Shown: positions 1-20,833, numbered from the stretch's first letter. The stretch is DNA of 64,000 nucleotides from an archaeon UBA583 (GCA_002506365.1 DAXK01000024.1:30944-94943), one strand, 5' to 3'. Made by a program: numbers and translations. The notes: a model not told the origin generated them from the sequence alone.

Positions 1-599
1 AAATCTAAACTTAAAATTAAATTTCTAAAAGAAGGTTCAGTTAAATCTAAAAATTGTGCATCAATCTTTTTAACATCATAAACTGGTAAAACTCTAAACT
101 CAACTGGAAAAAATTCAACTAAACCATTTGAATCATAAACAATAATATCTGAAGAAAATTTTTTATTAAATAAATTATTAGAATCTACTGAATCAGATAA
201 ATATAAACTCTTTGAAATCTTAAGTTTCTCCCCAGGTAAAATTCTATACTTCTCAACAGAACTAGAATTAAACTCACTAAAAAAAGAAAAAATTTCATCA
301 TAAGAAACATTAATAGTCATCTCATCTAATCCAACATTTTCAACTACCAAACTAAACATAGTATTTGAATTATTATAAATTCCAACATAACTATTTGACC
401 CATCAAAATTAATTTTATACACTAAAGAAGAATTCCCACAATCAATATAACAATTTAAAGAATTCTCTCCACTTGAACAAAAATTATCTCCACAAAAAAG
501 ATTTTCCTTAAAACCATCTTGTGCTGAAAAACCAACAAATGTAAAACTTAAAACTAATACAAAAAATAAAATAAATTTATTTAAAAAATTAAAATTCAT
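1..599 (-). CDS. Secreted protein, N-terminal part only (continues past the left edge): signal peptide, four-Cys module, beta-rich domain
   Basis: ATG at 597-599 on the minus strand lies 1 nt after the stop of 601..5634. My translation is MNFNFLNKFILFFVLVLSFTFVGFSAQDGFKENLFCGDNFCSSGENSLNCYIDCGN.... It is absent from the ORF track because it is open at the window edge. The Cys module matches those in the 1677-aa protein. Confidence 0.6.
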   Translation of the reverse strand, partial: MNFNFLNKFILFFVLVLSFTFVGFSAQDGFKENLFCGDNFCSSGENSLNCYIDCGNSSLVYKINFDGSNSYVGIYNNSNTMFSLVVENVGLDEMTINVSYDEIFSFFSEFNSSSVEKYRILPGEKLKISKSLYLSDSVDSNNLFNKKFSSDIIVYDSNGLVEFFPVEFRVLPVYDVKKIDAQFLDLTEPSFRNLILSLD

Positions 600-600: not shown

Positions 601-1776
601 TTAATTTTTCCCTCCATGTTTATTCATAAAATCCTTTAAATTCTCAATATACACTTCAACCATTCTAAATCTTCCTTCCTTTAATTTATTCTTAGCTAAC
701 TTTAAATCCATTCTAACATCTTCAACATTAGTCCCTCTAGCCTCTAAAGCATCAATAAACCCTGAAACTTGTTTTAAATAATTTGAATAATTCATATACT
801 TAACCAATAACTCATCAGATAACTTATGAGGATTATGAACAGGTGGTTTAATATCTACAAACCAAGGTCTTCCCTCATTATAATGAGGATTTTGAAATAA
901 CCCAGTCCCAATACTCATCCTAGTAATTCTCTCAGCATAAATTTCTCCATATTTAGATTTAGCCTTTGCAATATCAGACATACTCTTAGTATTTAATTGA
1001 ATCTCAGTTAAAACATTTCCTTGTAAAGCTTCCTTAAAATCCGCACTTACTTGTGAAACCATCAATACTCCAATTCCCCACTTTCTAAATTCTCTCGCTG
1101 CTTTCTCTAAAGCTAAATATCCCCCTGAACCTCCATACTTTTCTAACATCCTATGGATTTCATCAAACACTAAAAGCATCTTTAACCTATTAGCTTCTCC
1201 CCACTTCATTTGGAAAATTGTATCAACAATATTTGAAACAGCAATATCATACTCACCAGCTTTCAAATTATTTAAATTAAAAATTGTAACTTCACCTGGA
1301 TTCATATAATCCTTAAAATCTAAATCAAACTTAGGAGTATCAACATTATAAATAATTCCCTTATATGATTTAACATCATCCTCAGACATTCCAAACTTTT
1401 TAAAATACTTTAAAATATTTTCATCCTTATTACTACCTAAAAATCCAGTCCACTGCGCAGTTGGATCAAAAATTACTACAGGAATATTTTTATCTAAAAC
1501 TCCCTCAACAAATACTGAAGAAGTAACAGACTTACCTGAACCAGTAGAACCTGCAACCAAACCATGAGTTAAAAAATCATTAACATCAAAATAAGCTGGT
1601 TTATTAGTCCCACCAATCTTTCCAATTAAAACAGTTGAATCTCCATTAACAGGTAACTTTTTCAAATCAGGAATAATATATTTGGATTTTTTAAATAAAT
1701 TATCTCTATAATTTTTATAAAATCTATATCCAACATATACAACAATAGGAACAATAATAATTAATAATAATAAAAT
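601..1776 (-). other. TM helix (nt 1726-1776) plus cytoplasmic P-loop ATPase domain of FtsK/HerA/VirB4 type
   Basis: Walker A HGLVAGSTGSGKSV is at nt 1528-1551 and Walker B MLLVFDEIHR at nt 1159-1176. GIGVLMVSQ follows, then a C-terminal coiled-coil tail. The motif pattern matches DUF87/HerA-like ATPases as I recall them. Confidence 0.75.
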
Positions 1777-4700
1777 TTTTCTATCTGTTGTCCAAAAACT
1801 TACAGCATACTTAAAATTTTCTGAAATTTCAATTGTCTCAGACCCAACAGTCATAAAAACTGAAAACTTATACTCACCAATAGGTAAACTTGAATTTGCA
1901 AAATTACTAAACCCTAAAATCTTTTCATAATTTTTTCCATTCTCAACTAATAAACTTTCCTTTTTTTCTAAATAAATTGAATCATTTAAATTTGCACTAT
2001 CCCCAATACTTGAAATTACATACATAACCTCAGCATTAAATTTATCTGAATCCTTATTATCCACATCAAAATTAAACTCAAAATAATCTGAAGTAAAAAC
2101 ACTATCCTCAAGCTCTAAATTAATATCAATAGTTGACCTATTAATAATATTAATTGCTAAAGGTAATTGCTTTAACCCTCCTTTCTCTGAATACACTAAA
2201 ACATTTCCAGAAACTAAACCTAAATCAGAATCAGCTGGAATCTCAACTTTAAAATTTAATTGATTTTGAGTTCCAGGAACCAAAGTTAATTCTGTTTCCT
2301 CAAAAGTAATATATTCTTGTAAATTATTTGTAACACCAAATCTAAAAGTTTTCTCCTCCTCTAATTTTGAAATTAAATAATAAATAACATCCTTACTAGT
2401 TCCAACTTTAATATTTGGACTTAAATAATTTGTATAATGACCAAAAGGAAACTCTAAACAATCCTCAGCACAGTTTCTTAAATCCTCACCATTATCACAA
2501 ATAAAATTTCCACAAGTTAAATATAAAAAAGCTTGAGGACTACAATCCTCTGAACAACTTTGAGGATTCTCCCCAGTATTAACATCACAAATATTATCTC
2601 CACAACTTCCCTTAATATCAAATAAATCTTCAATAACTCCACCAGCACCACCAGCACCAGAAGCTGTAGCACCTGAACCTCCAGCCCCAGATGATGAACT
2701 ACTTGAAGAACTACTTCCTGAACTTGAACTTCCACCAGATGAACCTCCTGAACTTCCACCAGAACTTCCTCCTCCTGAAGAAGAACCTCCTGAACTTCCC
2801 CCATTAGAACCTCCAGAATTATCTTCATTCTCATTTCCTTGACCAGAATTTCCAGTATCACTATCACTAGCTAACTTTTGAGTTGTTAAAATATATGAAC
2901 TCATATTTTTAGTTGAAAAATATGCTAAAAAATTTTCTTCATCAATCTTAACCGGTCTTAAATCAACCCAATCACTAGCATTACAATCATTAGGATTAAA
3001 CTCACTACACTTTTTAAATAATAACTCACCTGGATTAAAAACCTGTGAATTTTCTAAAGATTTATCTAAAAACTTTTTATAATTAATTTTAATTTCAGCT
3101 TCACTAAAACTTGTTTTATTAGCATCAACTGAAAAAGTAAGTAAACTTGTATTTACAGGTAAATCAACTAAAACATCATTAAAATCTGTAACAACAACTG
3201 GATTTGAAACCGTATTTGTATTATTAATTAAATCAAAAGTTGAATCCTTAAATAAAATATTAACTTGATTAACATTTGAAACATCTTCTCTATCAGTAAT
3301 CTCAAAATCAACATTTAAATTAATTTTTCTATTTGAACTTTTAATATTTTGAGAATTATTATTATAATCCACAGTCACACTATCAAAAATTACCTCATTT
3401 GAATCTGGAGAAAATGAAGTTAAATTTAATTTCACATAAGGATTAGTATTATTAATTTTTAAAACAATCTCTGGAAAAGTATCTAAATAATTTGACTTTA
3501 AACCCCTATTAGAACTACTATCATTTGCAAAAGCAACTAAAATATATTCCTTATTTAAATTAAAATTATTTAAATCAAAACTATACTTATTTAACCCTAA
3601 ATCAGATGAAACTAAACTTGAAAATTCAGAAACATACTTCGCATTAAAACTTGACCTAAAAGATAAACTCTTATTTAAATCATTATTTTTAATAACAAAA
3701 GATACATCTTTCCCATTTAAAGATTCATAATTATAATAATTTCTAAAATTATCCAAACTTAACTTATAATCATAATCAACAACAATATTTTTAAATTCAA
3801 ATTGTCCTGGACTATTAGTAATTACTCTAACTGGAACTCTACAAGTATCCTCAATAATTGAATGCTCACTTAAAATTCCTAAACCATAAAGCATTGAATA
3901 ATCTAAACTATAAATGTCAAAAATATAATTAAACCTCCACTTATCAACCTCACAAGTTTTAAATCCTTTATTTAACTTTGAAATAAACTTAACATTTGAA
4001 AAAGTTTTACCAACAGTTAAATTTGAAACATTATCAATTAAAACTGAAGTATTTAAACCAACACTAATATTATAATTAATATTTTCATCAAAATCAATAA
4101 TTTCTAAATAATTACTAGTTAAAGTTTTCTTTGACTTTTGATACTCATCTAAAACATCAACTCTAAAATTTTTAGGTAAATAACTTCCAAGTTCACTAAA
4201 CCTTTTCAATTCCAAAAAAGAAGTAACTAAATCTTGATAAAAAACAATTTCCCCACCAGCTAAAGTAACTACAACAATATCCCTATTTAAACTATCTGTA
4301 TAAGTCTCAACTCCTTTAGGTCTTAAACCAGAAATTGAATCTAAATTATTAAAATTCCCAGCATCAAAAACTAAAACTCTATTATTCAAATAATCTGAAA
4401 TAAATAACTTTCCAAAATTAAACTCAACATCAATTGGAGACTTTATAAAATCCTCAGACCCAATCGCAAAAATTGATTGTGAAAAAGCTAAACTAGAAAA
4501 ATTCGTCTCAGAATTTGACATTAAAAAAGATACAACCTCCGAATTCCCAGAATCAATAGCAACTAAATTAATATTACCATTATAATCAAAAACCTCTAAA
4601 GAAGTTAAATAAGTAAAACTTAAATCCTCTGCCTTTCCAGTTATTTCATAAACCTCAGTAAAATTTAAATCTAAAACTTTAATAGAAGATGAATCTAAAT

Positions 4701-5634
4701 CAATAACAAAATAATTATCATTAAACTTTTTAATATCTGATAATTTATAATTAAAAGAATCCAAATTAAAAGTTGCTAAATCTTGAGAAAACCTAAAAGT
4801 TTTATTACTTGAAACATCAGTTGCAACAACTTTATTATCATAACTAAATAAACCTGAAACTAACTCAAACTCATTTGGAAAACTCCCGATAGAAAATGTT
4901 TTCAAATCTAAATTACTTAAATCAGAAACATCAACTCTATACAACCTTTTATCTAAACTCTCATAAAAATAAATTGAACCATTTAAATAAACTACATCTA
5001 AAATAGAACTAAACTTTTGAGAACCTATTTTTGGAACTAAATCAAAACTTAAATCTGACACAACTGAATTTTTAGGTAACTCAATATAAAAAACATCAGA
5101 ACTTAACCCATTTTTATTAAAATCAAAAGAATTTAAATTTTTATTATTATAATTAAAAGTATTAACCAAACCTAAATTATCTCTAGAAAAAATTACTCTA
5201 TCATTTAATAAAACATCAGCAGAACTACTCTCCCCAGAAAAAATTACATCTAAACTTCCATCAATTAAATAAGAATTACTTGGAACCGCATCAACAATAC
5301 TAACATTAGTATTAGCTGGTAAAGTTAAAGAAAAATTTTCTCCACCACCTAAAATATTAGAATTTAAAACTTTATCAAAATCATAAACTAATCCATAAAC
5401 AGAATCAATTGATGATAAGTCATCAACCATAAATTCTACATTATAAGAATCATTATTAATTCTAACCTTTGAAAAATTCTTAAAATTAGGAGAATAAACA
5501 TCCTTAAAACTAATTGAATCATTTGACTCAACTTCCACATAACCTCTATACTCAACACAATTTCCTATCCCAATAAATAAAATAAATAAAATAAAAATTA
5601 AATTAAATTTTCCTCCAATACTTGACTTATTCAT
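601..5634 (-). CDS. Giant type-I membrane protein: signal peptide, NHL-like beta-propeller ectodomain, G/S linker, two four-Cys modules, beta-sandwich, one TM helix, cytoplasmic FtsK/HerA-superfamily ATPase
   Basis: ORF track gives 1677 aa with an ATG start. N-terminal hydrophobic signal is FNLIFILFILFIGIGNC. NHL-type repeats are present (e.g. GKLFISDYLNNRVLVFD). The TM helix is ILLLLIIIVPIVVYVGY (aa 1287-1303). Walker A is GSTGSGKS and Walker B is LLVFDEIH. Confidence 0.9.
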   Translation of the reverse strand: MNKSSIGGKFNLIFILFILFIGIGNCVEYRGYVEVESNDSISFKDVYSPNFKNFSKVRINNDSYNVEFMVDDLSSIDSVYGLVYDFDKVLNSNILGGGENFSLTLPANTNVSIVDAVPSNSYLIDGSLDVIFSGESSSADVLLNDRVIFSRDNLGLVNTFNYNNKNLNSFDFNKNGLSSDVFYIELPKNSVVSDLSFDLVPKIGSQKFSSILDVVYLNGSIYFYESLDKRLYRVDVSDLSNLDLKTFSIGSFPNEFELVSGLFSYDNKVVATDVSSNKTFRFSQDLATFNLDSFNYKLSDIKKFNDNYFVIDLDSSSIKVLDLNFTEVYEITGKAEDLSFTYLTSLEVFDYNGNINLVAIDSGNSEVVSFLMSNSETNFSSLAFSQSIFAIGSEDFIKSPIDVEFNFGKLFISDYLNNRVLVFDAGNFNNLDSISGLRPKGVETYTDSLNRDIVVVTLAGGEIVFYQDLVTSFLELKRFSELGSYLPKNFRVDVLDEYQKSKKTLTSNYLEIIDFDENINYNISVGLNTSVLIDNVSNLTVGKTFSNVKFISKLNKGFKTCEVDKWRFNYIFDIYSLDYSMLYGLGILSEHSIIEDTCRVPVRVITNSPGQFEFKNIVVDYDYKLSLDNFRNYYNYESLNGKDVSFVIKNNDLNKSLSFRSSFNAKYVSEFSSLVSSDLGLNKYSFDLNNFNLNKEYILVAFANDSSSNRGLKSNYLDTFPEIVLKINNTNPYVKLNLTSFSPDSNEVIFDSVTVDYNNNSQNIKSSNRKINLNVDFEITDREDVSNVNQVNILFKDSTFDLINNTNTVSNPVVVTDFNDVLVDLPVNTSLLTFSVDANKTSFSEAEIKINYKKFLDKSLENSQVFNPGELLFKKCSEFNPNDCNASDWVDLRPVKIDEENFLAYFSTKNMSSYILTTQKLASDSDTGNSGQGNENEDNSGGSNGGSSGGSSSGGGSSGGSSGGSSGGSSSSGSSSSSSSSSGAGGSGATASGAGGAGGVIEDLFDIKGSCGDNICDVNTGENPQSCSEDCSPQAFLYLTCGNFICDNGEDLRNCAEDCLEFPFGHYTNYLSPNIKVGTSKDVIYYLISKLEEEKTFRFGVTNNLQEYITFEETELTLVPGTQNQLNFKVEIPADSDLGLVSGNVLVYSEKGGLKQLPLAINIINRSTIDINLELEDSVFTSDYFEFNFDVDNKDSDKFNAEVMYVISSIGDSANLNDSIYLEKKESLLVENGKNYEKILGFSNFANSSLPIGEYKFSVFMTVGSETIEISENFKYAVSFWTTDRKILLLLIIIVPIVVYVGYRFYKNYRDNLFKKSKYIIPDLKKLPVNGDSTVLIGKIGGTNKPAYFDVNDFLTHGLVAGSTGSGKSVTSSVFVEGVLDKNIPVVIFDPTAQWTGFLGSNKDENILKYFKKFGMSEDDVKSYKGIIYNVDTPKFDLDFKDYMNPGEVTIFNLNNLKAGEYDIAVSNIVDTIFQMKWGEANRLKMLLVFDEIHRMLEKYGGSGGYLALEKAAREFRKWGIGVLMVSQVSADFKEALQGNVLTEIQLNTKSMSDIAKAKSKYGEIYAERITRMSIGTGLFQNPHYNEGRPWFVDIKPPVHNPHKLSDELLVKYMNYSNYLKQVSGFIDALEARGTNVEDVRMDLKLAKNKLKEGRFRMVEVYIENLKDFMNKHGGKN
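2455..2610 (-). other. Two tandem four-Cys modules, C-G-[DN]-x-[IF]-C-x(2-4)-G-E-[ND]-x(2,3)-C-x2-D-C
   Basis: Translated as SCGDNICDVNTGENPQSCSEDC and TCGNFICDNGEDLRNCAEDC. A third copy, CGDNFCSSGENSLNCYIDC, is in the downstream ORF at about nt 437-499. Confidence 0.6.
2641..2868 (-). repeat. Low-complexity Gly/Ser-rich linker encoded by imperfect short tandem DNA repeats
   Basis: Encodes SDSDTGNSGQGNENEDNSGGSNGGSSGGSSSGGGSSGGSSGGSSGGSSSSGSSSSSSSSSGAGGSGATASGAGGAGG. The DNA shows reiterated ccagaacttcc/cctgaacttcc-like units. Confidence 0.8.
4230..5000 (-). other. NHL-like beta-propeller repeat region of the 1677-aa protein
   Basis: About six repeats of hydrophobic-x-D-x2-N/S-x-R/K-hydrophobic-x-hydrophobic-F/D type: SIYFYESLDKRLYRVD, VVATDVSSNKTFRF, YFVIDLDSSSIKVLD, LVAIDSGNSEVVSF, LFISDYLNNRVLVFD, VVVTLAGGEIVFY. 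Confidence 0.5.
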
Positions 5635-8600
5635 TTTGACTACCTCCTAAATTTACTCTCATTATTAAATCCTCTAACATATTTGACTTCACAAAAGGCA
5701 TCATACAACCAATGTTTAATCCATCTCCAACTCTCCCATAATAATCAGTTTCACAAACCTCATTAGCTACTTTAAACTCATAACCAAACTTATCAAACTC
5801 ACCATCATAACTCGCACTTGAATTAAACTCAACATTTGAATTTATTTCATAAACATTCGCTCCTAAAACATCAACCAATTTACTTGAACTTGTTGGATTA
5901 ATAACATTAATATTAACATCCACTAAAGTTAACTTAATTGGAACACTAATTGATTCACCAGACACAATATCAGTCACTAATAAAAATTCTTCTAATTGAG
6001 CTTTAACAATGTTTGTAGTATCAAAAGATACAATAAACTCAGATACTTTTGTATCCTCATCCATTTCAACAATTGTTGAATTTTTACCCTCAAAATTAAT
6101 TAAATTATTATTTGAACTACTAATATTAAATGTTCTACTTGAAGAAATTAAGTTATATAACTTAACAGTTTCCAATTCACCCTTAGCACCATTAGCTGAA
6201 ACATAATCACCCTCAATTAAATCCAATTCAAAACTTAAAACTGAACCAGCACTAGCAGCAGCTCCAGCAGCATCAGAAGCCCCTCCAGCACTCTCACCTG
6301 CATCAGCAGAAGAACCTGAATTAATTAATTTAATTATTTTCTCCTTTGAACTATTTTTAACTACATAATTAGCAACATCTGAAATTTCACAACTAAATCT
6401 AAAATCTCCATATTCATAAGGATGGAAATTTAAACTAGCCAAAGCATTTTCAGTTAAAACAGATTTAAATAACTCAAATCTATCAACATAAAAAGCACCC
6501 TCAACTGGATCTTGTCCAACATTTTCAAAACTTAAAACTAACTTATCTAAATTTGAATTACAAATTGAATTAAACTGACTTAAATTAATATCTGGATAAG
6601 ATAACTTACCTTTTACTTCTCCTAAATCAAAATTAACTAAACAATTAGTTTCATCTAAAATACTTACAGTCAAATTCAAAGTTAAATTATTTGGATTATT
6701 AACAACAAACCCTAAACTAGCAAAACTTGAAACATCATTTAAATTTGGACTATTCCACTCTAAATCCATAACACCATTAGTTGCAACACCAGAAACATTT
6801 AATCCTAAACTTCTATCACCATCCTCATTAAATTCACTTGAAGATAAACTATTAACATTAGCACTAGATCTAAATCCAATTGAATCCTCTCCAACAAAAT
6901 TTTCTAAATTACCAAACACTTCAGGATTACTTGAAAATTGACTACCTAAAATAATAGCTTCCCCAATCTCTAAAGTTTCCTCGGTAATTGTTTGTTCTAA
7001 AACAACTTTTGATAATTTTATACTAGCTCCAGCCCCACCATTAAATACAATATAAACATTTTTAATTTGTTTATTTGAACCAATAAATGCTGAATTTGAT
7101 AAAGAACTTTCTCCAGAAAATACTGTCTCAAATCCACTAGGAGTTTGAATTAATAAATCCCAAGTAGTTCCACCAGATAACTCATTAAACTCAACACTTA
7201 CAGTATCTAAATTATTAAAACCTAAATCCTCAACTGGAGAACTTGTTTCATAAACTGAAATATTTGTTTTAGTATCAAACCCTACAAATAACTCACTAAA
7301 TTGAGCAGTAACATTAGTTGCATCTTCACTATTCCAACTATAAATAACTCCATCAACATTCACAACAGACCCTAAAACATACTTAGGTAAAACTGCTGGT
7401 TTATGCATATAAAATTTAGTATCAAACTTTTCAGTTGGATTTGCTACAGTTTTATAAGATTCATAAACTTCACAAACTAAAGGCATATTAAATTGATTAG
7501 ACAATTCACCTGAAATTGTTGAAGGTGTATTCCACTTAGGTTCAACATATACTTTAACAGTTGCTAAATCACTAAAACTCTTATTATAATAATTTTGCTT
7601 TGAAACAAACGCAGATACATTATGAACTCCCGCTTCTAAATTAATACTTGGATTCCATAAAATCTTACAAGTTCCTAAAACATCAGTTTGACAAGTTCCT
7701 AAATCAGTAACTCCATTTAATTTAAACATCACATTTGAATTATTAACATTTAAACCAGTCGCACTATCAGTAACTAAAACACTAACATTACTTTGTGTAA
7801 TATCTAATATATCTAAAGACTCTCTAAATAAAATATCATTCTCAACTGTTAAACTCCCAATTAAAGTATCTCTAACAACAACAACATTTCTTTGAGCAAT
7901 AACTTCATCAGGACCAATTTGAATCTTAGCTGTTAAATTATAATTACCTAAAACAGTATTATCAATATTCCAATTAAAAGCTCTACTTGAACTTAAAACC
8001 TTTGAACCAGCTGAACTCTCTAAAGACCAAGTTGTATTATAAGATAATGAATTAGTAATATCAGACCCATCAATATCAGTTACTTCAAAATCAAAATTAT
8101 AATTATCTTGATAAATTAAAATATTATCTAATGGACTTAAAATCTTTAAACCATATCCACCTAAAATTTGAATTTCACTTGAAGTATTTCCACTATTATA
8201 ATAACTCTTACCTGCTAAAACTGAAACATTATAAATTCCAGCAGTTAAAACATCAGGATTCCAATTAATCTCACAAGTTCCTAAATTATCAGTATAACAA
8301 CTTCCAATTTGATCTAAAGTATTAAACTCAGTTGCATTAGTTGTAAAATTCACTTGTGAATTAATTACAGGATACCCATAAAAATCCTTTAAATTTACTG
8401 TAACATTTACATTATTACAAGCAATTGAATCATATAAATACAAACTACCTAAACAAGTAGCAGGATAATCATAACTAATAGTTGGAATAATATTTCCAAT
8501 TAAAGTTACATTTCTAACAGCTTGAGCTCCAGCTTTTACAAAATTTGAATCATCATCTTTTGGACGACAAATTAAACTATAATCTCCTGGACTATAAGTT

Positions 8601-11600
8601 GTAAAATTCCAAATATATTGTAAACTCCCTGGAACATTAGGTCCAGATAAATTATAAGTATTATTAGATAATAAAATACTCTCACCTAAATTTGAATCTA
8701 AAACTAATTCAGCTGGGTAATTTTGAATTAAACTATTAACATTTAAAGAATCAAAATATTTACAATGAAAATCAATAGCCCCTTGAGTTGCTAATAATGA
8801 AGTTACAACATTAGAAGATTTATCAATCACATTATTTAATGGAACAGTTTGAACAAAATCTGAATCTGCTTTTCCAAAAATTGAAATATTTGTAAATACA
8901 AAACTTCTACAAGTATCATCTAAACATTCAGTTGAATCAACTTTTAGATATCCATTATAATTTCCTCTAGCTGTAGCTGAAAACATATCCATTGAAAATG
9001 TCTTAGACTCAGAAACTGCTAAAGATGAATAACTAGCAGGAGTAAAAGAAATTGTAAAATCACTATTATCTAAACCTTGCTTTAAAGTTCCATTATAAAT
9101 TGAAATATCAACATTATCTAACTTATCATTACCATAATTTTGAATATTAACTAAACCAATATTTTGAGGATTAAAACCAACATTTAAATCAAATTTTTCT
9201 AATTCATTTGAAATAATTCTAACTCTATTAGTTGGATCAATATTAACTGTAAAAGTATCTGACACAAATCCATTACTTGAATCCACATTCTTCCAATTAC
9301 TTAAAACAAAAAATAACTTATTTCCATTTCCAACATTTTCATCTAATGTAACTCTAACTGTAGTTAAACAAAAATTCCCAGTTAAAATAGTTCCACAATT
9401 AACAATTGAATTTGTAGCATCAACCTTTAAACCATCACCACTAAAAATTAATTGTGAATTTTTCATTCTAGCTAAACCATCATTATCCAATTTAACTTGT
9501 AAATCAAAACTATAATCCTCTCCAACATAAATCGGATCAGCATTAGATACTTGAGGACTTAAAGTTAAACTTCCACTAGTTGTTCCAACCGCATTAAATA
9601 CATTTGTAAATGTTTGAGTTTGATTTTTATTTCCAATATTTGTAGCAACAACTTCAACTGAATGAAATCCAGCAACTCTAGGAGTAAAAGTATAACTATC
9701 AAAACTATCTGGTGAAGTAAAACCTCCTTGAGGGAAATTATAAACAAAAGTATTTCCATCAGGTTCAGCAATATTAAAAGTTAAATCTCTTAAAGTAACA
9801 GGAGTTGCTGTAATATTTGAAGTAATTACAACTGATTGTTCAGCAACTTCCAATAAAGCAACATCTGATGTAACTGAATTAATAACTGGAGGTGAATTTG
9901 AAATAAAAAATGTGAAATCATCTGTTCCAACATTTCCAACTAAATCTTGAGCAACAACTTCAAAAACAGTAGTTCCCTCAGTCCCTCCAAAATAAGTAGG
10001 TAATTTATCAGTTAATTCAAATCTATTAATTCCACCATTATATACTAAATCTTCTCTTAAATTAGTATCAACTCCAATTCCTGAAACTGGTCTAATATAT
10101 ACTCTAGATAAATTATTAACTCCGTTATTCTCATCAACCCAAGATGACCAACTCATATTCTTTAATGGACTAACTCCTGGAAATCCTCCAGTAACTGGTG
10201 AAGAGGGTTCAGCATTAGTAATTCCAAAACTTCTAATAATTGGAGCAGCATTATCTAAAACAAAATCATAACTCTTTACAGCCTTATTCCCTGCTCTATC
10301 AGTTAACTCAACTAAAATAAATTTATTACCTGAAACTCCAGCCCCCTCACTCATTGAATAAGTAGTTCCACAAGTATTTCCAGAAACTGCAACAGATACA
10401 ATTTCATCATCTCCACCATCTAATACACCATTATCACTATAAAAAACTTTACAAATATCATATAAAGGTTCTCCAGCAGTTAATGAAAATGTTTGTGAAT
10501 CCCCTGATTTAATTAAAGAACCAGAAAAAGATTCTCCAGTAATTACAGGATTTAAATTATCAACATTTAAACTTACAGTCTTACTATTTAAATTATCTAA
10601 AGTATCTTTAGCTTGAACTGTAAAAATATAAGTCCCATCAGAAATTCCAGTTGTATCAATTGTACATGAATAAGCATCAGCACCCTCACTAACCATATCA
10701 TAAGTAGTTCCATCAACAATACAATCATAAGTTGTATCAACTCCCTCATCAGCAGCATCATTAATAGTTGCAAATAATTTCATATTCCCTGAGATATAAT
10801 TTCCATCAATCCCTGAAGTATAAGCTCTCCCATCACTATTTGAAACTTTATAAATATTAATAGTAGGAGCATTATTATCAATTTTAAAATTTCTAACTAA
10901 AGATTTTTGATTTCCTGAATTATCAGTTGCTTTAACAGTTACAGAATGATCCCCATCTGAATATCCAGTTGTAATTACATCAAATTCACAATTTCTAGTT
11001 AAACCTGAACCAGAACAAATCATCAAAGTTTCAACTTCAGAATCAACTTTAGCTTTTGCATTTGCAAAATTTGCTTCAGTAATAGTTGCTAAAACTTTAT
11101 GAGTATTCTCCGTAACTAATCCATCAGCAGGATCACTAATTACAACAACAGGTAATGTATTATCAATTTTTAAATCAATAGACTGACTTCCAACTTTACC
11201 AGACTTATCAGTAGCTGAAACTGTTAAAGTTTTAGTTCCATCTCCACCAACACAAGGTTTTGTTGTATCAAAAGACTTTGAAAATTGATTTGCTGAAATA
11301 TATGTCATAGTTTCAGTACAACTTCCAATAGTAAAACTAACTAAACTATTATCTCTATTTACATCAACAACATTAGCTTTAACTGAAATTGAACCTTTAA
11401 CATATTGATCATTTACTAAAGTTGTAATAGTTACAACTGGTAAAGTTGTATCCAAATAAAAATCAAAATTCTTTGAAGTTGGATTATCTAAACTATCCTT
11501 AGCTGTAATAGTTACTGTATTTTTTCCTTCAACAAAACCACTCGCATCAATTGCAGCTGAAACTCCACAACTTTGTCCAGATGCAACACACTGATTTACA

Positions 11601-14600
11601 GATTGGGAAATAACTTCCTTTATAGTTAAATCAACATTTGAACTCACAGTCCCAGTAATATCTGCTGTATCTCCAGTCCCACTTAAATAAGTTTTACTTT
11701 GTGTTAAACTATTTAACACAACCCCAGTTTTAATAACCTTTAAATTAACTGTTGTAAATCCACGATTTCCAGCTTCATCCCAAGCTTCAAAAGTAATAGC
11801 ATAAGTTCCATCACCTAATGAATTTGTATTTTTCACCATATCTAATTTTGAAAAAGTTCCAGCATTTACTCCATTAGTCCCAGAATCATAAATATTACCT
11901 AATCCTGAACCTGTAACACGAACTCTATCAATTTGATTATCATCAGATACATCAATTTGAAAATTTGTATTTGGACTACAAGCAGTTCCATAAGTTAAAG
12001 GTAAACCTGCACAACCTGAATCAACAGTAGCAGTATTAATTGTAGGTTCTGTATCATCTACAAAAATACTAAATGTTTTATCATCTTTATATAAAGATTG
12101 ATCACGAATTCTTAAATTAAAAGTATTTGTTCCAGAACTTCCTGGAACTACAACACTAGCTGACCAATTACCCTCACTATCTTTTGAAAAAGATTTATCA
12201 TAAGCTGTATCTTCAGAATACCTTATATCTTTCATATCATTTAATCCATCAACTCCAATAGTTAAAGGATTTAAATTAACAAATACATTAGCATTAGCTC
12301 CAGGTTTATAATATGGTTTTTCAACTGTAATTGTTTGAACTTTTGGTCCAACATCATCAATATAAACTGTAACAGATTTTTCAAAAAATGATCCTTGAGA
12401 AACTAAACTCTCATCTTGAATTTTAACTTTAAAAGTATAAGCATTAACACCATTTGATTTAGTCATTGCTGAAAATCTAACACACTTACTATCAGCAGCT
12501 GCAATTAAACTACCTTCAGAAGGAGTAGGTCCTGGAAAACTCCCTGTAATTGGACTTTGTTCAATTCTATAACTTTGTAAATCATCACTTCCCTTTGAAG
12601 TTGAAAATCCAATATATACATCTCCGGCATTCGCACTCTTAACCCAAGTTACTGGTTGAGAACAACTTGAATCAGAATAGGCCCCAACACTTAAAGTTGG
12701 AAAAGTATAATTTTCAGGTAAATCTCCCCACCCAGTTCCTAAAGTTTCAGACATTAAAACATTTCTAGTAGCAGGACCAGAAACAACTAATCTATTACCA
12801 TTTCCAATATTTAATAAATTATCAACATCACAAGTAAAATCATAACTATTTCCATAATCAGATACAACTGGAGTTATATATTTTTCAATAATTCCTGTTG
12901 AATCCCCATTTTGAGTAATTGTTGGATTAATTGTATTACACCCATCACAACTTAATTTTGTTGGAGCATAAGGAACAGCTGTCCCATGGAAAGTTCTAAC
13001 TCTACAAACAAATTTCATTTTACCTGAGTTCTCACCAATATCAATTGGAGCAATAATTGCTGCTTCAGGTGTAATCATATCAACATTAACTGGGTAATCA
13101 AAATAAATATTATTTTCATCAATAAATGTTCTCTCCTTCCAAAAATAATTACAAGTATGAACTGGTCCTAACTCATAACTTGAATAAGTATCTAAAGTTT
13201 CATAAAAATCCCCATATGATTTTGTAAAAATTTTCCAATTATCATTAATTCTATAATCATTTACAACATAATTATTAATTGAATAAATATTCATTGTTTT
13301 TGCAAAAGTATTATCTGAACCTCCTGAAACTGTCCCCAAATAAACACCATAACAATTTTCTGAAGCATCTCTAATTAAATAATCTACAGATACACTTGAA
13401 CTATCTAATCTAGTTCCAAACTCATCATAGACATGAGTATTAAAATTATTATTTTGATTAACAACTAATCTTGCATTTTCAGCTGGAATTGTTAAAGTGG
13501 AATTTAAAATTCCCCAAATTTCAAAATCAGCATTATAAACTTCAGAAGTCCAACCAGTTTGACCTGGAACTGCTGCGCTAATTACAACATTATATTCTCC
13601 AACAGGTAAATTGTCTGGATTCCATTCTAAATTACAATTCTTTAAATGATAATTATCGATTGAATCTCTTGGATTTGTTAAACCTAAATTACTTTTATTA
13701 GGATCTTGAATACAAGAAACTGTATCAATTAAATTCCCATTTGAAGTTCTATAAATACTCATTGAAACATTAGCTCCATCAACTAAAATTTGTTGACCTT
13801 CCTTTGAAGTTCCAACAGCACCAATTGTTGCAAACTCAACTCCCGCATATAATTTTTCAGGTCCATATAATGGATAAATTGATTTTCTATAAACTGTATA
13901 ATTATTCATATTATGTGGGTAAATAATATTTCCAATTGAAGATTTAGTTAAATCATATTCCCGGTTTCCAAAAATAACATTTCCAATAATTGATAAATCA
14001 TCAGGTAAATTTAATTCTTTAAATTGATAAGTTGAATTATCAGCTTCAATTTTATAATTTGGATTTTCAAAATCATAAATTCTACAATAAACTTCTTGAG
14101 CTCCAGTATTTAAAGTATTTGAATTAATATTTAAAACTGCTAAACCATTTGAATCAGTTGAAACATTAAACCTATTTCCTCCAACATCAAACTCAGTTTG
14201 ATAAAAAGATAAATCAGAAACTCCGCTAACTGAAACTCTACAACTAATTTGATTCACAGCATTAGGAGTTAAATAACTTGGAACAATTAAATCTGTAATC
14301 TTTGCAGTATTTACAATTGTAATATTTTCAATAACATTTCCAAATCTATAATAAGTAGAATCATTTAAATTAACTACAACACTTGATGAACCCCTCATAA
14401 TTGAACTTGGAATATATGATACATTAAACCCGTCTCCAAATATTAAATCAACCCCTCTTGAAGAATCAACATAACTCCAAATTGGATTTGCAATAGAAGA
14501 TTCAAAATTATTACAAGAATCACTAAACTCTAAACTTAATTGGTTTTCATTTCCATAAAATACATCATCTGCTTGACCTGTTGTATACAATGGACTAATT

Positions 14601-17600
14601 CTTGGACTAATTTGAGCATTACTAAAATCATCATAAAAAACCACATCATTTTGTGAAACATTTTCAAATACTGGTAAAGTTGGATTTAAATTTCCTGATA
14701 AAATAACTCCCACTTTAAACTCACCAACATTATAATCACATGTAGGTTTTAAAGCACTAAAACATTGACCATTTGAATTTGTTAAAGAATCCTCATAAAT
14801 CGTTCTTTGCCCTAAACTATTTTCAACAAACCAATCACACCTATACCCAGACCAAGTTCCAGTATATTCTGAAGATGCAATAGCTAAACCATTTCCAGTG
14901 GTAATTTGAGCTGAAATACTTTCTAAAGAATTATTATGTCTAGAATACTCATCCTCTGTTGTAATTTGAATATTTAATACATCATCAACACTTAATAAAA
15001 CAGAAGTATTAACAACCGCATACATTAAAGAATCAACACTAGCTTGTAAATCAATTGAACCAAATACGTCAGCTGGAATAATCCAATTATCATTTTGTTT
15101 AGTTGAAATAACTGAAAAATCTCCAGTATCCGTTTCTAAATATTTCCAGAAAACATCACCATTATTAACATTTACAGAATTTCCACAAGAATCTAAAATT
15201 CCTAAATCAAAAACTAAATTATCTCCTGTATCATAAGCAATTGAATTAACTGGTGAATCAATAGATAAAGTAATATTATCTTTTAAGAATACTGAATCAG
15301 TTAAATTAGTATCTACAAAATACTTATTAGTATTATAATTAGTTAAATAAATTTCATAATTAATTTGACCTAAAGCAATTGAACACACATTTAAATTTGG
15401 AATATTTTTGATAAAACTTGTAAAAGTACACTTCCCATTTGAATCAGAAGTAACTGTTTTAGTTTCACCTAAAATTTCCAAATTACAATAAACTCCTTGT
15501 TCAGTAATAATATTATTCTCACTATTTGTTAAACTTACAACTAAATCCTCATTTGAAGTTCTAAAAATTGTAGCACCTAAATTAGCACTTGCAAGTAAAT
15601 CAGATTTAAAAGTTTGATTTAAAACTTCAGACTGAAAATCATCAAACCCTTTTGATGAAACAACAACATAATAATAATAAGTATCTGGATTATAAAAACT
15701 AGGTAATTGTAAACTACATGTTGAATTTCCAACATTTGATAAAGTATTTCCTAACAAACTAGGATTATTTCCAACTGAATCAGTTTGATAATAATTACAA
15801 ATAATATCTCCTAAATTTGGAGCATCTAAAGTCCCATTTTCATAAACATTAATTACTAAATCTCTAGATAAACCAGTATCAACTTTCACAATATCTAATT
15901 GTCTATTTAAAACTTCAAAAGTTCCTTGTTCAATAATTTTATCTCCTAAATAATTTTTAGAAACTCTCTCAAAATCTTTAACAATAATTTTATAATTAAC
16001 AATTCCAACATAATTATTTCCTAATTGAAAATTAACTTCTCTATTAACTCCAACACCAGGAGTTGTTGAAATATTTTCAACTGATAAATTTACCCACTTA
16101 CTTTGTTTTAAACTATAAACTTGAAAAATTACTTGAACATCATCACCCTCTAAATCTAAAACTGAATAATTTAATTTTTGATTTCTATTTCTCTCAAAAG
16201 AATATGAATCAAAAGTTACATTTGAAACACTAGGTCTATCATTAATTAAACCAAAAGTTCCATAAGAAATTTCTTCCCCATTATCTAATTGTTCAATAAC
16301 AAAATTAATTTCACTTACATTTTCATTAACAATTTGTGAACACGCATAATAATTTTTACCATTTAAATTAAACTTTGTATAAAAATCAGTTAATACTTTT
16401 TCAGATCCTTTCACAAAATCATCTAAATAACAATTATTAATTGGACTTAAACTAACATTTGAGATAGACAAATTATTTTCATCCTTAACTAAAAAATTAA
16501 TGCTTGAATAAGAATTATCAGATAAATCAATTGAATTAATTTTACTCACAACATAATTAATACTTGAAGTTGAATAACTTGAATTTAAACTAATTTTTTT
16601 ATTTAAATAATTTCCAAGTAAATTTGAATCTAAAGTGCTTGAACTCTCAATCACTGGAACTACTTTATCATTATATAAAAAATAATCCTTATCACGATTA
16701 ATAGAATAAAATAATCCAAAATCACATCCATTTGAAAACCCTTCTTTATCTAAATCTTGAAAACTTGAACTATCACAAGAATTTACAATTAAACTATTTT
16801 TATCATAAACTTCAATTCCTCCAACAACATAACCTGGTAAATTTGAAAACTTTTTAATTTTTAAAGGAGCAAAATCATTATTATAATTAATCTGAACCCC
16901 ATCAGCAAAATAACTTTGCCCAGCAAATAAATTTGATTTAAAATTAAAGTTATCAACTAAAACTTCACTAACTAATTCATCTGAATCTAAACTAAAAATC
17001 ATTGTTAAATCAGCTAAAAATTCTGGATTAAAATTTGAAGTTACAAATTTTAATGGAACAAAAATATCCATAATTCCAGAAAAGACTTCAGAACTCATAA
17101 AACTATTAACACTACCATTTAAATTCGGTAAAGTTATTTTATTCACAAAATCATCTACATAATTATAACTTGATACTCCATCAACTAATATTTCAATTCC
17201 ATCAATTGCAGATAAAGATAATTTAGTTACATCATAACCTGAACTTGCTAAAATAACTCCAGTAGTTGTCTTATCAACTTCAAAATTATTAAAATATTTA
17301 TCAATTGTTAAAACTCTTTTTTGTGAAAAAGTATTATCAAAAATTACAAACTTAGAAACTCCAGAATCTTTTGTAACCACAATAATTTCATCTCTTAAAT
17401 CTCCTAAAACATCAAGTTTTAAAACATCAACTAAAACACCATCCGCGTTTAATAAATTTCCAGTCTTAAAAACATTCAAATTATAATCATAAACTACATA
17501 ATTTAAATTAGAATTAATCACAAATAATTTATCAGTAACTTCAAATTTAGGTTTATTAAATCCTGTAAAAGAATCAATTAAATTCCCTTCACTTGAATAT

Positions 17601-20812: not shown

Positions 20813-20833
20813 ATACAAATTAATATCATTTTC

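What the first reader, a model, noticed from the sequence alone, without database searches (positions are those of the whole stretch)
601..5634. Single polypeptide joining a roughly 1260-aa extracellular region to a cytoplasmic HerA/FtsK-like ATPase through one TM helix
Seen in sequence, in order:
- signal peptide
- NHL-like propeller (nt 4230-5000)
- G/S linker (2641-2868)
- two four-Cys modules (2455-2610)
- beta-sandwich-like segment
- TM helix ILLLLIIIVPIVVYVGY (1726-1776) followed by basic residues (RFYKNYR), consistent with an N-out/C-in topology
- Walker A GSTGSGKS (1528-1551) and Walker B LLVFDEIH (1159-1176)
- coiled-coil tail

HerA/FtsK-family motors act as ring hexamers. Hexamerisation here would cluster six large ectodomains around a membrane-proximal ring. 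A motor physically fused to an adhesin-like ectodomain is an unusual architecture, and I cannot match it to a described family.
Basis: partly seen in the sequence, partly recalled or inferred. Interest (0 to 1): 0.85.

Follow-up and report, generated by a model that had tools for sequence, protein, structure and literature searches.

The report
SPEARE-type surface protein with HerA ATPase
This gene from a tiny symbiotic (DPANN) archaeon encodes a real surface protein tied through one membrane helix to an internal HerA-type motor, but the design is already described as the "SPEARE" giant proteins and is common in these archaea, so this is a new member rather than a new kind.

Summary
ORF 601..5634 (-) is an intact 1677-aa type-I membrane protein. 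In order it has a signal peptide, an orphan ectodomain of about 900 aa, a G/S linker, two four-Cys modules, two Ig-like beta-sandwiches, one TM helix, a cytoplasmic P-loop ATPase and a helical tail.

The ATPase belongs to the HerA clade of the FtsK-HerA superfamily. Walker A, Walker B, the sensor residues and a trans-acting Arg/Lys finger are all invariant in a 64-sequence family alignment.

The claim that the architecture matches no described family does not hold. It is the SPEARE / "giant membrane-anchored" family of DPANN archaea (Hamm 2019; Reva 2023).
- An exhaustive search found 341 cluster representatives at E<=1e-30.
- Among 139 newly retrieved representatives the median length is 1646 aa, the longest is 7878 aa, and 111 of 116 have a TM helix just upstream of Walker A.
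- At least 584 stretches in a scan of species-representative (GTDB) genomes encode a relative.

As in published loci, a short paralogue (681 aa) follows directly. Within a genome the cytoplasmic domains of the long and short copies are 64-96% identical, with gene-conversion tracts, while their ectodomains are only 22-29% identical. A third soluble coiled-coil gene is conserved downstream.

The likely function is inferred, not shown: a membrane-anchored ring translocase at the host contact site. Novelty: new member of a known kind. Interest is about 0.3.

The parts
601..5634 (-). Complete ORF of 1677 aa: a SPEARE-type type-I membrane protein
   Evidence: One search lists the ORF. The same DNA is present in public contig L002. 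The start ATG overlaps the stop of the upstream giant gene by 8 nt (ATGAATAA), and a GGAGGT Shine-Dalgarno-like motif lies upstream.
5551..5634 (-). Signal peptide (aa 1-~28; hydrophobic core aa 10-26)
   Evidence: It is one of only two hydrophobic segments in the protein. Family members start with comparable signal peptides.
2839..5550 (-). Orphan N-terminal ectodomain (aa 29-932), S/N-rich with many N-glycosylation sequons. It includes six NHL-like repeats at aa ~213-480 (nt ~4195-4996) that remain unverified.
   Evidence: No homologues were found in the word-indexed database search. None were found among 259 family proteins or the neighbouring giant proteins. No Pfam domain passed threshold. 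The AlphaFold2 single-sequence model of aa 190-500 had pLDDT 36.8.
2638..2838 (-). G/S-rich flexible linker (aa 933-999) joining the variable ectodomain to the conserved family module
   Evidence: Located. An equivalent G/S/A linker sits at the same position in the 9409-aa Nanohalococcus giant and the 15808-aa Woesearchaeote giant.
2458..2604 (-). Two four-Cys modules (CGDNICD..C..DC and CGNFICD..C..DC), aa 1011-1059
   Evidence: Located. The family consensus is CGxxxCxxxExxxxCPxDC. The family ectodomain HMM matches both copies. The L004 giant and P0001, P0004 and P0007 carry the same modules.
1807..2445 (-). Two membrane-proximal Ig-like beta-sandwich domains (aa 1064-1276), ending just before the conserved (P)FWT motif
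   Evidence: The AlphaFold2 blocks covering this region have pLDDT mostly 80-95. Foldseek's best matches are WxLIP and RbmA tandem sandwiches, E about 1e-13 to 1e-12. The family HMM matches aa 1035-1281 at 1.2e-53.
1726..1776 (-). Single TM helix (aa 1287-1303), followed by the basic stretch RFYKNYR...KKSK
   Evidence: the modelled helix spans aa 1283-1316. A TM segment lies within 120 aa upstream of Walker A in 111 of 116 family representatives.
838..1635 (-). Cytoplasmic HerA-clade RecA-like ATPase core (aa 1334-1599), with no HAS-barrel. Walker A is at nt 1528-1551 (K1368). Walker B is at nt 1153-1176 (D1491/E1492). The trans-acting finger R1517/K1518 is at nt 1081-1086. The sensor S1527/Q1528 is at nt 1051-1056. 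The invariant Q1394 sits in the motif FDPTxQW.
   Evidence: Pfam DUF87 1.7e-13 and HerA_C 2.7e-9. PDB hits to HerA entries 4d2i and 8wiv. Foldseek matches to HerA hexamers. PADLOC HerA 1.7e-15. The invariant columns are listed.
613..816 (-). C-terminal three-helix tail (aa 1607-1674), the 'coiled-coil' of the published descriptions
   Evidence: AlphaFold2 helices at model residues 608-633, 639-653 and 657-675 have pLDDT above 90. The consensus motif KLKEGxFKM is near-invariant, with one invariant Gly. Reva et al. describe the same tail.
1..599 (-). Start of the tandem short paralogue (P0001, 681 aa: signal peptide, Cys module, beta-sandwiches, TM, ATPase). Its ATG lies one base after the stop codon of the 1677-aa ORF.
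   Evidence: Its cytoplasmic domain is 78% identical to that of the 1677-aa protein, and its ectodomain is 22% identical.
5627..20818 (-). Upstream 5063-aa secreted giant protein with Ig-like domains. It has no TM helix or ATPase at its C-terminus and is translationally coupled to the 1677-aa ORF.
   Evidence: C-terminal sequence. One search gives Big_13 and Big_3_3 hits. One search shows no match to the family's membrane-proximal module.

Best explanation
**Shown.**
- The ORF is a genuine, mid-sized member of the SPEARE-type family of DPANN-archaeal type-I membrane proteins.
- A Sec signal peptide exports a lineage-specific, glycosylation-sequon-rich ectodomain of about 900 aa. A G/S linker joins it to a conserved membrane-proximal module of Cys modules plus two Ig-like sandwiches.
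- One TM helix leads directly into a cytoplasmic HerA-clade ATPase that lacks HerA's N-terminal HAS-barrel.
- That ATPase keeps every catalytic residue, including a trans-acting Arg/Lys finger, and ends in a conserved helical tail.
- The gene sits in a translationally coupled operon: a 5063-aa Ig-rich secreted giant, then this protein, then a 681-aa short paralogue. In the public contig a conserved soluble coiled-coil protein follows.

**Inferred (about 40-45% for the mechanism as a whole).**
- The finger acts in trans, and every solved relative that matched (the HerA structures) is a ring. The cytoplasmic domains therefore probably assemble into a ring lying flat under the membrane, with the TM helices bundled where HerA carries its HAS-barrel.
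- The ring probably mixes long and short paralogues. This would explain why their ATPase domains are kept alike by gene conversion while their ectodomains diverge freely.
- ATP hydrolysis would then drive a polymer through or along the ring axis at the contact site that the ectodomains make with the host cell. Given the HerA affinity, the polymer is most likely nucleic acid, taken up from the host by an organism that, like DPANN archaea in general, probably has little capacity to make its own nucleotides.
For: **Identity and topology.**

**HerA-clade assignment.**
- Pfam DUF87 and HerA_C pass their cut-offs.
- A profile search against PDB sequences gives HerA at 2.6e-10 to 4e-6. IcmO (0.004), FtsK (0.05) and TraD-like coupling proteins (0.17) match only the P-loop.
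- All ATPase matches in the Foldseek top 50 are HerA hexamer structures.
- PADLOC HerA models match.

**Catalytic competence and oligomer signature.**
- K1368, D1491/E1492, S1527/Q1528 and R1517/K1518 are invariant in 64 sequences.
- R1517/K1518 align to the trans-acting R455/K456 of 8xau (PMC11291478).

**Family membership.**
- The cytoplasmic domain is 47-56% identical to those of the Nanohalococcus SVXNc_0300 and Woesearchaeote giants, which share the same linker/sandwich/FWT/TM/ATPase/tail order.
- P0089 is AQV86_02330, listed by Hamm et al..

**Ubiquity.**
- 1133 representatives at E<=1e-3 and 341 at E<=1e-30, in proteins up to 7878 aa.
- At least 584 stretches matched in the genome scan.

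**Pairing with a short paralogue.**
- 16 of 83 loci have a tandem pair. One of them is a fragmented gene and two are the same contig, leaving 14 distinct pairs.
- Cytoplasmic identity within a genome is 64-96%, against 47-56% between phyla, while ectodomain identity is 22-29%.
- Runs of 44 and 34 identical synonymous codons occur in two pairs (p about 0.0005).

**Operon coupling.**
Against: - No experiment exists for any family member beyond proteomic detection.
- One TM helix per subunit gives only six helices per ring, which is few for a channel.
- No nuclease (NurA-like) or channel partner was found among the neighbours scanned.
- Many Aenigmatarchaeota loci have a lone long gene with no tandem short paralogue inside the 10-kb flanks, so a mixed ring cannot be obligatory.
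- High paralogue identity in the window pair could reflect a recent duplication plus ectodomain swapping rather than conversion. Synonymous identity there is uniform, with no significant tract.
- The family replaces HerA's class-specific Glu (E180 of Sulfolobus solfataricus HerA) with an invariant Gln (Q1394). The effect on catalysis is unknown.
- No hexamer model could be computed with the tools available.
Confidence: 0.6

Rival explanations
1. A type IV-secretion-like 'straw' (Reva et al. 2023). The ATPase is a VirB4/TraG-type secretion ATPase. Together with the downstream second ATPase, it pumps protein effectors out of the symbiont into the host, through or along the giant ectodomain.
For: - This is the published reading of the homologous nanohaloarchaeal proteins.
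- VirB4 and the coupling proteins belong to the same FtsK-HerA superfamily.
- There are weak sub-threshold hits to T4SS-DNA_transf, TrwB_AAD_bind, AAA_10, TraD and VirB4-like models.
- The tandem arrangement of two ATPases is conserved.
Against: - Every sequence, profile and fold comparison ranks HerA first. Hits to coupling proteins and FtsK cover only the P-loop.
- No VirB4 structure appears in the Foldseek top 50.
- No PF03135 (CagE/TrbE/VirB4) hit was obtained for the window protein.
- No VirB3, VirB6 or VirB8, pilin or relaxase homologue was seen among the neighbours scanned in the window or in loci L001, L003 and L004.
- The beta-sandwich and Ig ectodomains give no sign of a hollow conduit.
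Confidence: 0.2
2. No conduit is involved. The ring ATPase does mechanical or housekeeping work on the surface protein itself. Candidates are clustering the ectodomains into an attachment patch, transmitting or resetting a conformational state across the membrane, or extracting or turning over the giant proteins.
For: - A single TM helix per subunit is a poor basis for a channel.
- The conserved soluble coiled-coil partner gene and the helical tail suggest a cytoplasmic scaffold.
- The ectodomains are adhesin-like: Ig-like sandwiches in this protein and Big_13/Big_3_3 in the upstream giant.
Against: - To my knowledge, characterised FtsK-HerA-superfamily ATPases translocate a polymer through a central pore.
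- No precedent is known to me for such a motor acting only as a clustering device.
- Strict conservation of the full catalytic set implies repeated ATP turnover.
Confidence: 0.15
3. The original SPEARE reading (Hamm et al. 2019): the cytoplasmic domain is a type III restriction-enzyme domain that degrades imported DNA.
For: - There is a weak Pfam ResIII hit, E 0.0055 and 17.1 bits against a cut-off of 22.5, spanning Walker A to Walker B.
- ResIII also appears among the precomputed Pfam hits of many homologues.
Against: - ResIII is a helicase/ATPase module, not a nuclease, and the hit is below threshold.
- HerA models score far better.
- No nuclease motif or domain was found.
- Reva et al. reached the same conclusion.
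Confidence: 0.03
4. An artefact: an assembly chimera or frameshift has fused a surface-protein gene to a separate ATPase gene.
For: - The locus contains two 78%-identical ATPase segments that can confuse assemblers.
- One public assembly (L001) carries a 207-nt tract of the short paralogue's sequence inside the long gene.
Against: - The SPAdes and MEGAHIT contigs agree on the whole 1677-aa frame.
- The fusion point is a G/S linker followed by the family's own Cys module, as in independent giants from other phyla.
- 107 of 139 family representatives exceed 1000 aa with the same order.
- The swapped tract is in frame and lies inside the ATPase, not at the fusion point.
Confidence: 0.02

Closest known systems
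SPEARE proteins / giant membrane-anchored proteins of Nanohaloarchaeota (Hamm et al. 2019 PNAS, PMC6642349; Reva et al. 2023 Front Microbiol, PMC10266531; e.g. NAR1_1133, SVXNc_0300, BNXNv_0298)
   Same: - The order of parts is the same: signal peptide, large adhesin-like ectodomain, G/S linker, membrane-proximal sandwiches, FWT motif, one TM helix, cytoplasmic ATPase, helical tail.
- The cytoplasmic domain is 47-50% identical.
- A short paralogous ATPase gene follows immediately, then a conserved coiled-coil gene.
   Different: - This protein is much smaller, 1677 aa against 4000-9400 aa.
- Its distal ectodomain is an orphan sequence with no laminin-G, protease-like or Ig-repeat array.
- The truly giant Ig-rich protein here (5063 aa) is a separate upstream gene without TM or ATPase.
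- The host organism is a low-GC, Woesearchaeota/Nanoarchaeia-like DPANN archaeon from a bioreactor metagenome, not a halophile.
HerA (archaeal HerA-NurA DNA-end resection helicase, PDB 4d2i and 9x1m; bacterial anti-phage HerA of the SIR2-HerA and DUF4297-HerA systems, PDB 8wiv and 8xau)
   Same: - It shares the RecA-like core fold, Walker A and B, the ...RE(G/F)RK(F/W)G...SQ finger/sensor block and C-terminal helices.
- HerA gives the best sequence, profile and fold matches.
   Different: - It has no HAS-barrel; a TM helix and an exported N-terminal region take its place.
- No NurA, SIR2 or DUF4297 partner is present.
- An invariant Gln (Q1394) replaces the class-specific Glu (E180 of Sulfolobus solfataricus HerA).
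- NCBIfam equivalog scores are far below cut-off (38 bits against 800).
Membrane-anchored FtsK-HerA-superfamily translocases (FtsK/SpoIIIE, Streptomyces TraB, type IV coupling proteins TrwB/VirD4, T7SS EssC/EccC, Sulfolobales CedB/CedD)
   Same: The general plan is shared: an N-terminal membrane anchor followed by a cytoplasmic ring ATPase whose axis is perpendicular to the membrane. There are weak hits to CedD (4.4e-10, 38.9 bits), TraD, TraB and FtsK models.
   Different: - Those proteins have 2-4 or more TM helices and little or no ectodomain. This one has a single TM helix and an ectodomain of about 1260 aa.
- Similarity to them is limited to the P-loop region.
- All hits are far below the family cut-offs.

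Membership tests
SPEARE-type giant membrane-anchored ATPase proteins (DPANN) | Most of the protein is extracytoplasmic, with one TM helix near the C-terminus and the C-terminal region in the cytoplasm | tested here: met
   - The only hydrophobic segments are the signal peptide and a single TM helix at aa 1287-1303.
- The sequon and Cys distribution and the basic residues after the TM helix support this topology.
- The AlphaFold2 model agrees.
SPEARE-type giant membrane-anchored ATPase proteins (DPANN) | A conserved cytoplasmic domain homologous to that of published SPEARE proteins, followed by a coiled-coil tail | tested here: met
   - 47% identity over 370 aa to the C-terminus of SVXNc_0300 (L003) and 50% to SVXNc_0299/P0093.
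- P0089 (AQV86_02330) matches at E 2.2e-122 with 49% identity.
- The helical tail is modelled with pLDDT above 90.
SPEARE-type giant membrane-anchored ATPase proteins (DPANN) | A second, shorter ATPase paralogue is encoded immediately downstream | tested here: met
   P0001 (681 aa) starts one base after the stop codon, at window 1-599.
SPEARE-type giant membrane-anchored ATPase proteins (DPANN) | A giant ectodomain (over 3000 aa) with laminin-G, Ig-like adhesion and protease-like domains | tested here: not met
   - The ectodomain is about 1260 aa, and its distal 900 aa have no detectable domains or homologues.
- Size is not constant in the family, which spans roughly 550-7878 aa. This is a difference in degree, not an exclusion.
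HerA clade of the FtsK-HerA superfamily | A RecA-like P-loop core with Walker A, Walker B (hhhhDE), a trans-acting Arg finger before the sensor strand and a polar sensor residue | tested here: met
   K1368, D1491/E1492, R1517/K1518 and S1527/Q1528 are invariant and aligned to HerA in 4d2i, 8wiv and 8xau. Foldseek matches HerA hexamers.
HerA clade of the FtsK-HerA superfamily | An N-terminal HAS-barrel domain | tested here: not met
   Only about 30 residues separate the TM helix from the first core strands. The HerA alignment begins at HerA residue ~116, after the barrel.
HerA clade of the FtsK-HerA superfamily | Hexameric ring assembly and a nuclease or effector partner (NurA, SIR2 or DUF4297) | not testable with these tools
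   - No multimer prediction tool was available.
- No partner of these kinds was detected in the neighbours, but only sequence profiles were used.
Type IV secretion system ATPases (VirB4 / VirD4-TraG) | Best similarity to VirB4 or coupling-protein families, and co-occurrence with other T4SS components | tested here: not met
   - VirB4 and coupling-protein hits are sub-threshold and limited to the P-loop.
- The Foldseek top 50 contains no VirB4 or VirD4.
- No T4SS genes were found in the neighbours scanned.
   - Six motif-like repeats are visible by eye.
- There is no Pfam hit even at E<=10.
- No periodicity reached z>2.5.
- The AlphaFold2 model has pLDDT 36.8.

The most novel reading that the evidence does not exclude
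The long (ectodomain-rich) and short paralogues co-assemble into one hetero-oligomeric, membrane-anchored HerA-type ring. Ongoing gene conversion keeps their cytoplasmic domains interchangeable, while their ectodomains diversify freely. The ring, docked under a host-contact patch made by the giant surface proteins, imports host nucleic acid into the DPANN cell. That would make it a previously unrecognised, HerA-based inter-cellular DNA/RNA uptake machine, distinct from the Ced/Ted systems and from type IV secretion.
Probability: 0.2. Interest if true: 0.75.

Novelty: new member of a known kind. Interest (0 to 1): 0.3.

Why it matters
DPANN archaea depend on physical contact with host cells, and how material crosses between the two cells is an open question. 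SPEARE-type proteins are the most conspicuous candidate machinery. They are the largest genes in these tiny genomes, and no function has been shown for any of them.

This window adds a compact, tractable 1677-aa member from a non-halophilic lineage. The work done here sharpens the published picture in four ways:
- The motor is HerA-like rather than VirB4/TraG-like or a restriction enzyme.
- Its catalytic residues and trans-acting finger are invariant.
- It is typical of a very large family: at least 584 matching stretches in species-representative genomes and 341 cluster representatives at E<=1e-30.
- In several lineages it comes as a long/short tandem whose motor domains evolve in concert.

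It does give concrete hypotheses for the field to test.

Tried and rejected
1. **Homologues of the distal ectodomain (aa 1-932).** The word-indexed search gave nothing at E<=1e-3. A local phmmer search against 259 family proteins and the neighbouring giants gave nothing at E<=1. The region is treated as an orphan.

2. **The NHL propeller.** No hit appeared in Pfam at E<=10. An autocorrelation test found no lag with z>2.5. The AlphaFold2 single-sequence model had pLDDT 36.8. The question stays open.

3. **The idea that the upstream 5063-aa giant is a SPEARE that lost its TM helix and ATPase.** Its C-terminus does not match the family's membrane-proximal module, so the idea was dropped.

4. **Restriction-enzyme reading.** The ResIII hit is sub-threshold and is a helicase module. 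Rejected.

5. **Anti-phage HerA system.** PADLOC matches only the HerA component, and no effector partner is present. Rejected as a defence system.

6. **tRNA and Rfam scans of the window.** Nothing was found.

7. **Exact-sequence look-up of the 1677-aa protein.** The sequence is not in the protein collection, although its contig is public.

8. **A deep split between 'long' and 'short' ATPase clades.** Nearest neighbours mix the two types across genomes, so either concerted evolution or repeated duplication is favoured. Between close relatives (two Nanohalobium MAGs), long pairs with long and short with short. This shows the duplication predates their split.

Full report
**1. The observation**

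ORF 601..5634 on the minus strand is uninterrupted and encodes 1677 aa.
- hydrophobic signal-peptide core at aa 10-26;
- G/S-rich run at aa 933-999 (nt 2638-2838);
- two four-Cys modules at aa 1011-1059;
- the only internal hydrophobic segment at aa 1287-1303 (nt 1726-1776), followed by RFYKNYR;
- Walker A GSTGSGKS at nt 1528-1551;
- Walker B LLVFDEIH at nt 1153-1176.

The region N-terminal to the TM helix carries 26 N-x-S/T sequons and every Cys. The C-terminal 368 aa carry one sequon and no Cys. This fits an N-out/C-in type-I topology.

The window is archaeal and DPANN-like. It encodes archaeal LonB, TrmB, Nre, PheRS alpha and beta, FtsZ and diphthamide synthase, and its GC content is about 26%.

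**2. Structure and family of the conserved C-terminal 680 aa**

A search with aa 1279-1677 returned 316 proteins at E<=1e-3. The named ones come from Woesearchaeota, Nanoarchaeia, Aenigmatarchaeota and Nanohaloarchaea.

I aligned aa 1000-1677 with 63 of them (A1). AlphaFold2 on that alignment gave mean pLDDT 87.6. The model shows:
- two beta-sandwiches (aa 1064-1276);
- a 34-residue helix crossing the membrane (aa 1283-1316);
- a RecA-like core (aa 1334-1599);
- three C-terminal helices (aa 1607-1674).

Foldseek against the PDB matched the sandwiches to WxLIP and RbmA. It matched the ATPase to HerA hexamers (4d2i, 8xau, 8wiv, 9x1m, 7f6d). No VirB4, VirD4 or FtsK structure appeared in the top 50.

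The other comparisons agree:
- Pfam gives DUF87/HerA at 1.7e-13, HerA_C at 2.7e-9 and FtsK_SpoIIIE just above threshold.
- NCBIfam gives only weak, far sub-threshold hits to HerA, CedD, TraD, VirB4-like and FtsK models.
- PADLOC gives HerA models.
- A profile of A1 against all PDB sequences ranks HerA entries at 2.6e-10 to 4e-6. IcmO/DotL (0.004), FtsK (0.05) and TraD-like coupling proteins (0.17) match only the P-loop.

The motor is therefore a HerA-clade member of the FtsK-HerA superfamily.

**3. Catalytic and oligomerisation residues**

Invariant columns in A1 include K1368 (Walker A), D1491/E1492 (Walker B), R1514, R1517, K1518 and S1527/Q1528.

In the HMMER alignment to 8xau, the block REFRKWG aligns with KEGRKYG. 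Counting from residue 411 places R1517/K1518 on R455/K456. Those two residues contact ATP in trans from the neighbouring subunit, and mutating them drastically reduces ATPase activity (PMC11291478). The same block aligns to AREGRKFG of Sulfolobus solfataricus HerA.

A conserved trans-acting finger is the sequence signature of a ring or other oligomer. The hexamer itself could not be modelled here.

Two differences from HerA stand out:
- There is no HAS-barrel. The alignment starts after it, and the TM helix occupies its place.
- An invariant Gln (Q1394, motif FDPTxQW) stands where S. solfataricus HerA has its class-specific Glu180 (role of Glu180 from bioRxiv 10.1101/2022.06.23.497301).

**4. 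The architecture is already described**

Hamm et al. 2019 defined the SPEARE proteins of Nanohaloarchaeota. These are very long proteins, mostly extracytoplasmic, with a TM helix near the C-terminus and a conserved cytoplasmic region. The authors read that region as a type III restriction enzyme. They also noted it in Woesearchaeota, Aenigmarchaeota, Micrarchaeota and Altiarchaeales (PMC6642349).

Reva et al. 2023 re-analysed these proteins as Ig-like repeats, then a TM helix, then a VirB4/TraG-like ATPase, then a coiled coil. They pointed out that the next gene encodes another ATPase of the same family (PMC10266531).

That downstream protein of Ca. Nanohalococcus occultus is my hit P0093. The giant upstream of it, in locus L003, ends with G/S linker, sandwiches, SFWT, TM, ATPase and tail. 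This is the same order as the window protein. A 15808-aa Woesearchaeote giant (L004) even has the same two Cys modules after its linker.

Cytoplasmic identity of the window protein to these proteins is 47-56%. P0089 is AQV86_02330, listed by Hamm et al.. The sub-threshold ResIII hit that presumably produced the 'restriction' reading is reproduced. It spans Walker A to Walker B and is a helicase module, not a nuclease.

**5. How common it is**

An exhaustive phmmer search of 1.84 billion cluster representatives with aa 1304-1677 found 1133 proteins at E<=1e-3 and 341 at E<=1e-30.

Among the 139 newly retrieved representatives:
- 107 exceed 1000 aa, 64 exceed 2000 aa and 21 exceed 4000 aa;
- the median is 1646 aa and the longest is 7878 aa;
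- 111 of the 116 with a recognisable Walker A have a TM segment within 120 aa upstream.

The window protein, at 1677 aa, sits near the median.

A scan of one genome per GTDB species found at least 584 stretches that encode a relative. They lie mostly in Aenigmatarchaeota, Woesearchaeota, Nanohaloarchaea and 'Nanobdellati', with one in Hydrothermarchaeum profundi. In the 80 loci fetched, the ATPase lies at the C-terminus of a long ORF in nearly all cases.

**6. The locus**

The window's contig is public as a MEGAHIT contig from SRR1023996 (a bioreactor metagenome), which is identical over the ORF. A SPAdes contig is identical over 22 kb except for 24 sites.

The gene order is:
- 5063-aa giant, with a signal peptide and Big_13/Big_3_3 Ig-like domains but no TM helix or ATPase;
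- the 1677-aa protein;
- P0001, 681 aa, a canonical short member;
- a 647-aa soluble protein;
- a 1633-aa surface protein anchored by a C-terminal TM helix.

The first three genes are tightly coupled. The giant's stop overlaps our ATG by 8 nt, with GGAGGT upstream. The ATG of P0001 lies one base after our stop codon, with GGAGGG upstream.

The 647-aa protein has homologues at the same position in L003 (512 aa) and L004 (696 aa). BLASTP E-values are 1e-17 to 1e-24 over a coiled-coil core of about 200 aa. It matches no Pfam, PADLOC or PHROG family.

**7. Concerted evolution of the motor domains (to my knowledge not in the papers read)**

In three distant genomes the long and short paralogues are 78%, 84% and 88% identical in the cytoplasmic domain. 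They are only 22-29% identical in the membrane-proximal ectodomain. Between genomes the cytoplasmic identity is 47-56%.

Fifteen tandem pairs were compared, two of which are the same contig, leaving 14 distinct pairs. Across them the within-pair identity is 64-96% and is often the highest to any sequence in the set. In two closely related Nanohalobium MAGs, however, long matches long (88%) and short matches short (86%). The duplication therefore predates their split.

At synonymous positions the Nanohalococcus and Woesearchaeote pairs show runs of 44 and 34 identical codons. The background is about 40%, equal to the between-genome baseline, and permutation gives p about 0.0005. Identical nucleotide runs reach 152 and 106 nt. 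This is the pattern expected from gene-conversion tracts.

In the window pair, synonymous identity is uniformly high (80%) with no significant tract. That fits a recent duplication, or conversion of the whole domain.

The only differences between the two public assemblies are 24 sites in a 207-nt tract (aa 1456-1524). In that tract one assembly carries exactly the short paralogue's sequence, at 24 of 24 sites. This is either a conversion variant or an assembler switching between repeats. Only the reads can decide.

**8. Mechanism**

*Shown:* topology; the HerA-type core with a complete catalytic set and a trans-acting finger; operon coupling; family-wide conservation of the module.

*Inferred:*
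- The cytoplasmic domains form a ring under the membrane, with the TM helices where HerA has its HAS-barrel.
- Long and short paralogues may share the ring, which would explain the homogenised motors and the free-running ectodomains.
- The ring drives a polymer, most likely nucleic acid given the HerA affinity, at a host-contact site built by the adhesin-like ectodomains.

I put this at about 40-45%.

*Rivals:*
- Type IV-like effector secretion (Reva et al.), about 20%. It is weakened by the HerA-first rankings and by the lack of any other T4SS gene.
- A non-conduit mechanical or scaffolding role, about 15%.
- A restriction enzyme, about 3%.
- An assembly artefact, about 2%.

*Weak points of the favoured model:*
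- One TM helix per subunit is thin for a channel.
- Many Aenigmatarchaeota loci lack a tandem short gene.
- No nuclease or channel partner was found.

**9. Verdict**

The novelty claim is not. This is a compact new member of the SPEARE-type family, in a non-halophilic DPANN lineage, with an orphan distal ectodomain.

The family remains uncharacterised and biologically interesting. The HerA placement, the invariant finger, the concerted evolution of the tandem motors and the conserved third gene are useful refinements. Interest for this finding as stated is about 0.3.

Noticed in passing
window 1-599 (-); L001/L002 10001-12046: A second, canonical 681-aa family member (P0001) starts one base after the stop codon of the 1677-aa ORF. 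It has a signal peptide, a Cys module, sandwiches, a TM helix and a HerA-like ATPase. Its ATPase domain is 78% identical to the long protein's, and its ectodomain only 22%.
   Followed up: yes
window ~1063-1269 (aa 1456-1524 of the ORF); L001 vs L002: The two public assemblies of this contig differ at only 24 sites in 22 kb, all inside one 207-nt tract of the ATPase. At all 24 sites one assembly carries the short paralogue's sequence. This is either a gene-conversion variant or an assembler switching between repeats.
   Followed up: partly
L003 (Ca. Nanohalococcus occultus CP104395) and L004 (Woesearchaeote JAIPIC010000001), last ~1.1 kb of the giant gene vs the next gene: Mosaic nucleotide identity between tandem long and short ATPase domains. 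Blocks of 95-100% identity sit next to blocks of 52-75%. Runs of 44 and 34 identical synonymous codons occur (p about 0.0005). This indicates concerted evolution confined to the cytoplasmic domain.
   Followed up: yes
L001 12227-14170; L003 11917-13455; L004 12097-14187: A soluble, acidic coiled-coil protein (647, 512 and 696 aa) is conserved directly downstream of the short ATPase in three distant lineages (BLASTP E 1e-17 to 1e-24). It matches no Pfam, PADLOC or PHROG family and is a likely third component of the system.
   Followed up: partly
window 22127-22975 (-) and L001 19199-20047 (+): Two paralogous 282-aa GGDEF (diguanylate cyclase) genes, 40% identical, bracket the surface-protein locus. 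To my knowledge GGDEF domains are uncommon in archaea, and their presence in a DPANN genome next to this locus may be worth a look.
   Followed up: partly
window 5627-20818 (-): The 5063-aa upstream giant has Big_13 and Big_3_3 Ig-like domains and a G/S/A linker about 330 aa from its end, but no TM helix or ATPase. In other lineages the giant region and the ATPase form one polypeptide. Here they are split into two coupled genes, each with its own signal peptide.
   Followed up: partly
window aa 1394 of the ORF (nt 1453-1455): Throughout the family an invariant Gln (motif FDPTxQW) occupies the position of HerA's class-specific Mg-water-coordinating Glu (E180 in Sulfolobus solfataricus HerA).
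   Followed up: no
L059 (Ca. Hydrothermarchaeum profundi MTMF02000009, 1115440-1136840): A family member of at least 3803 aa occurs on a 1.9-Mb scaffold of a non-DPANN archaeon. Small contigs binned as Heimdallarchaeota or Methanosarcinales also carry members; these may be mis-binned DPANN contigs.
   Followed up: no
window 1-64000: GC skew is negative in every 2-kb bin but one across the whole 64 kb (cumulative -9.3). This coincides with most long ORFs lying on the minus strand. No tRNA or Rfam family was detected anywhere in the window.
   Followed up: no
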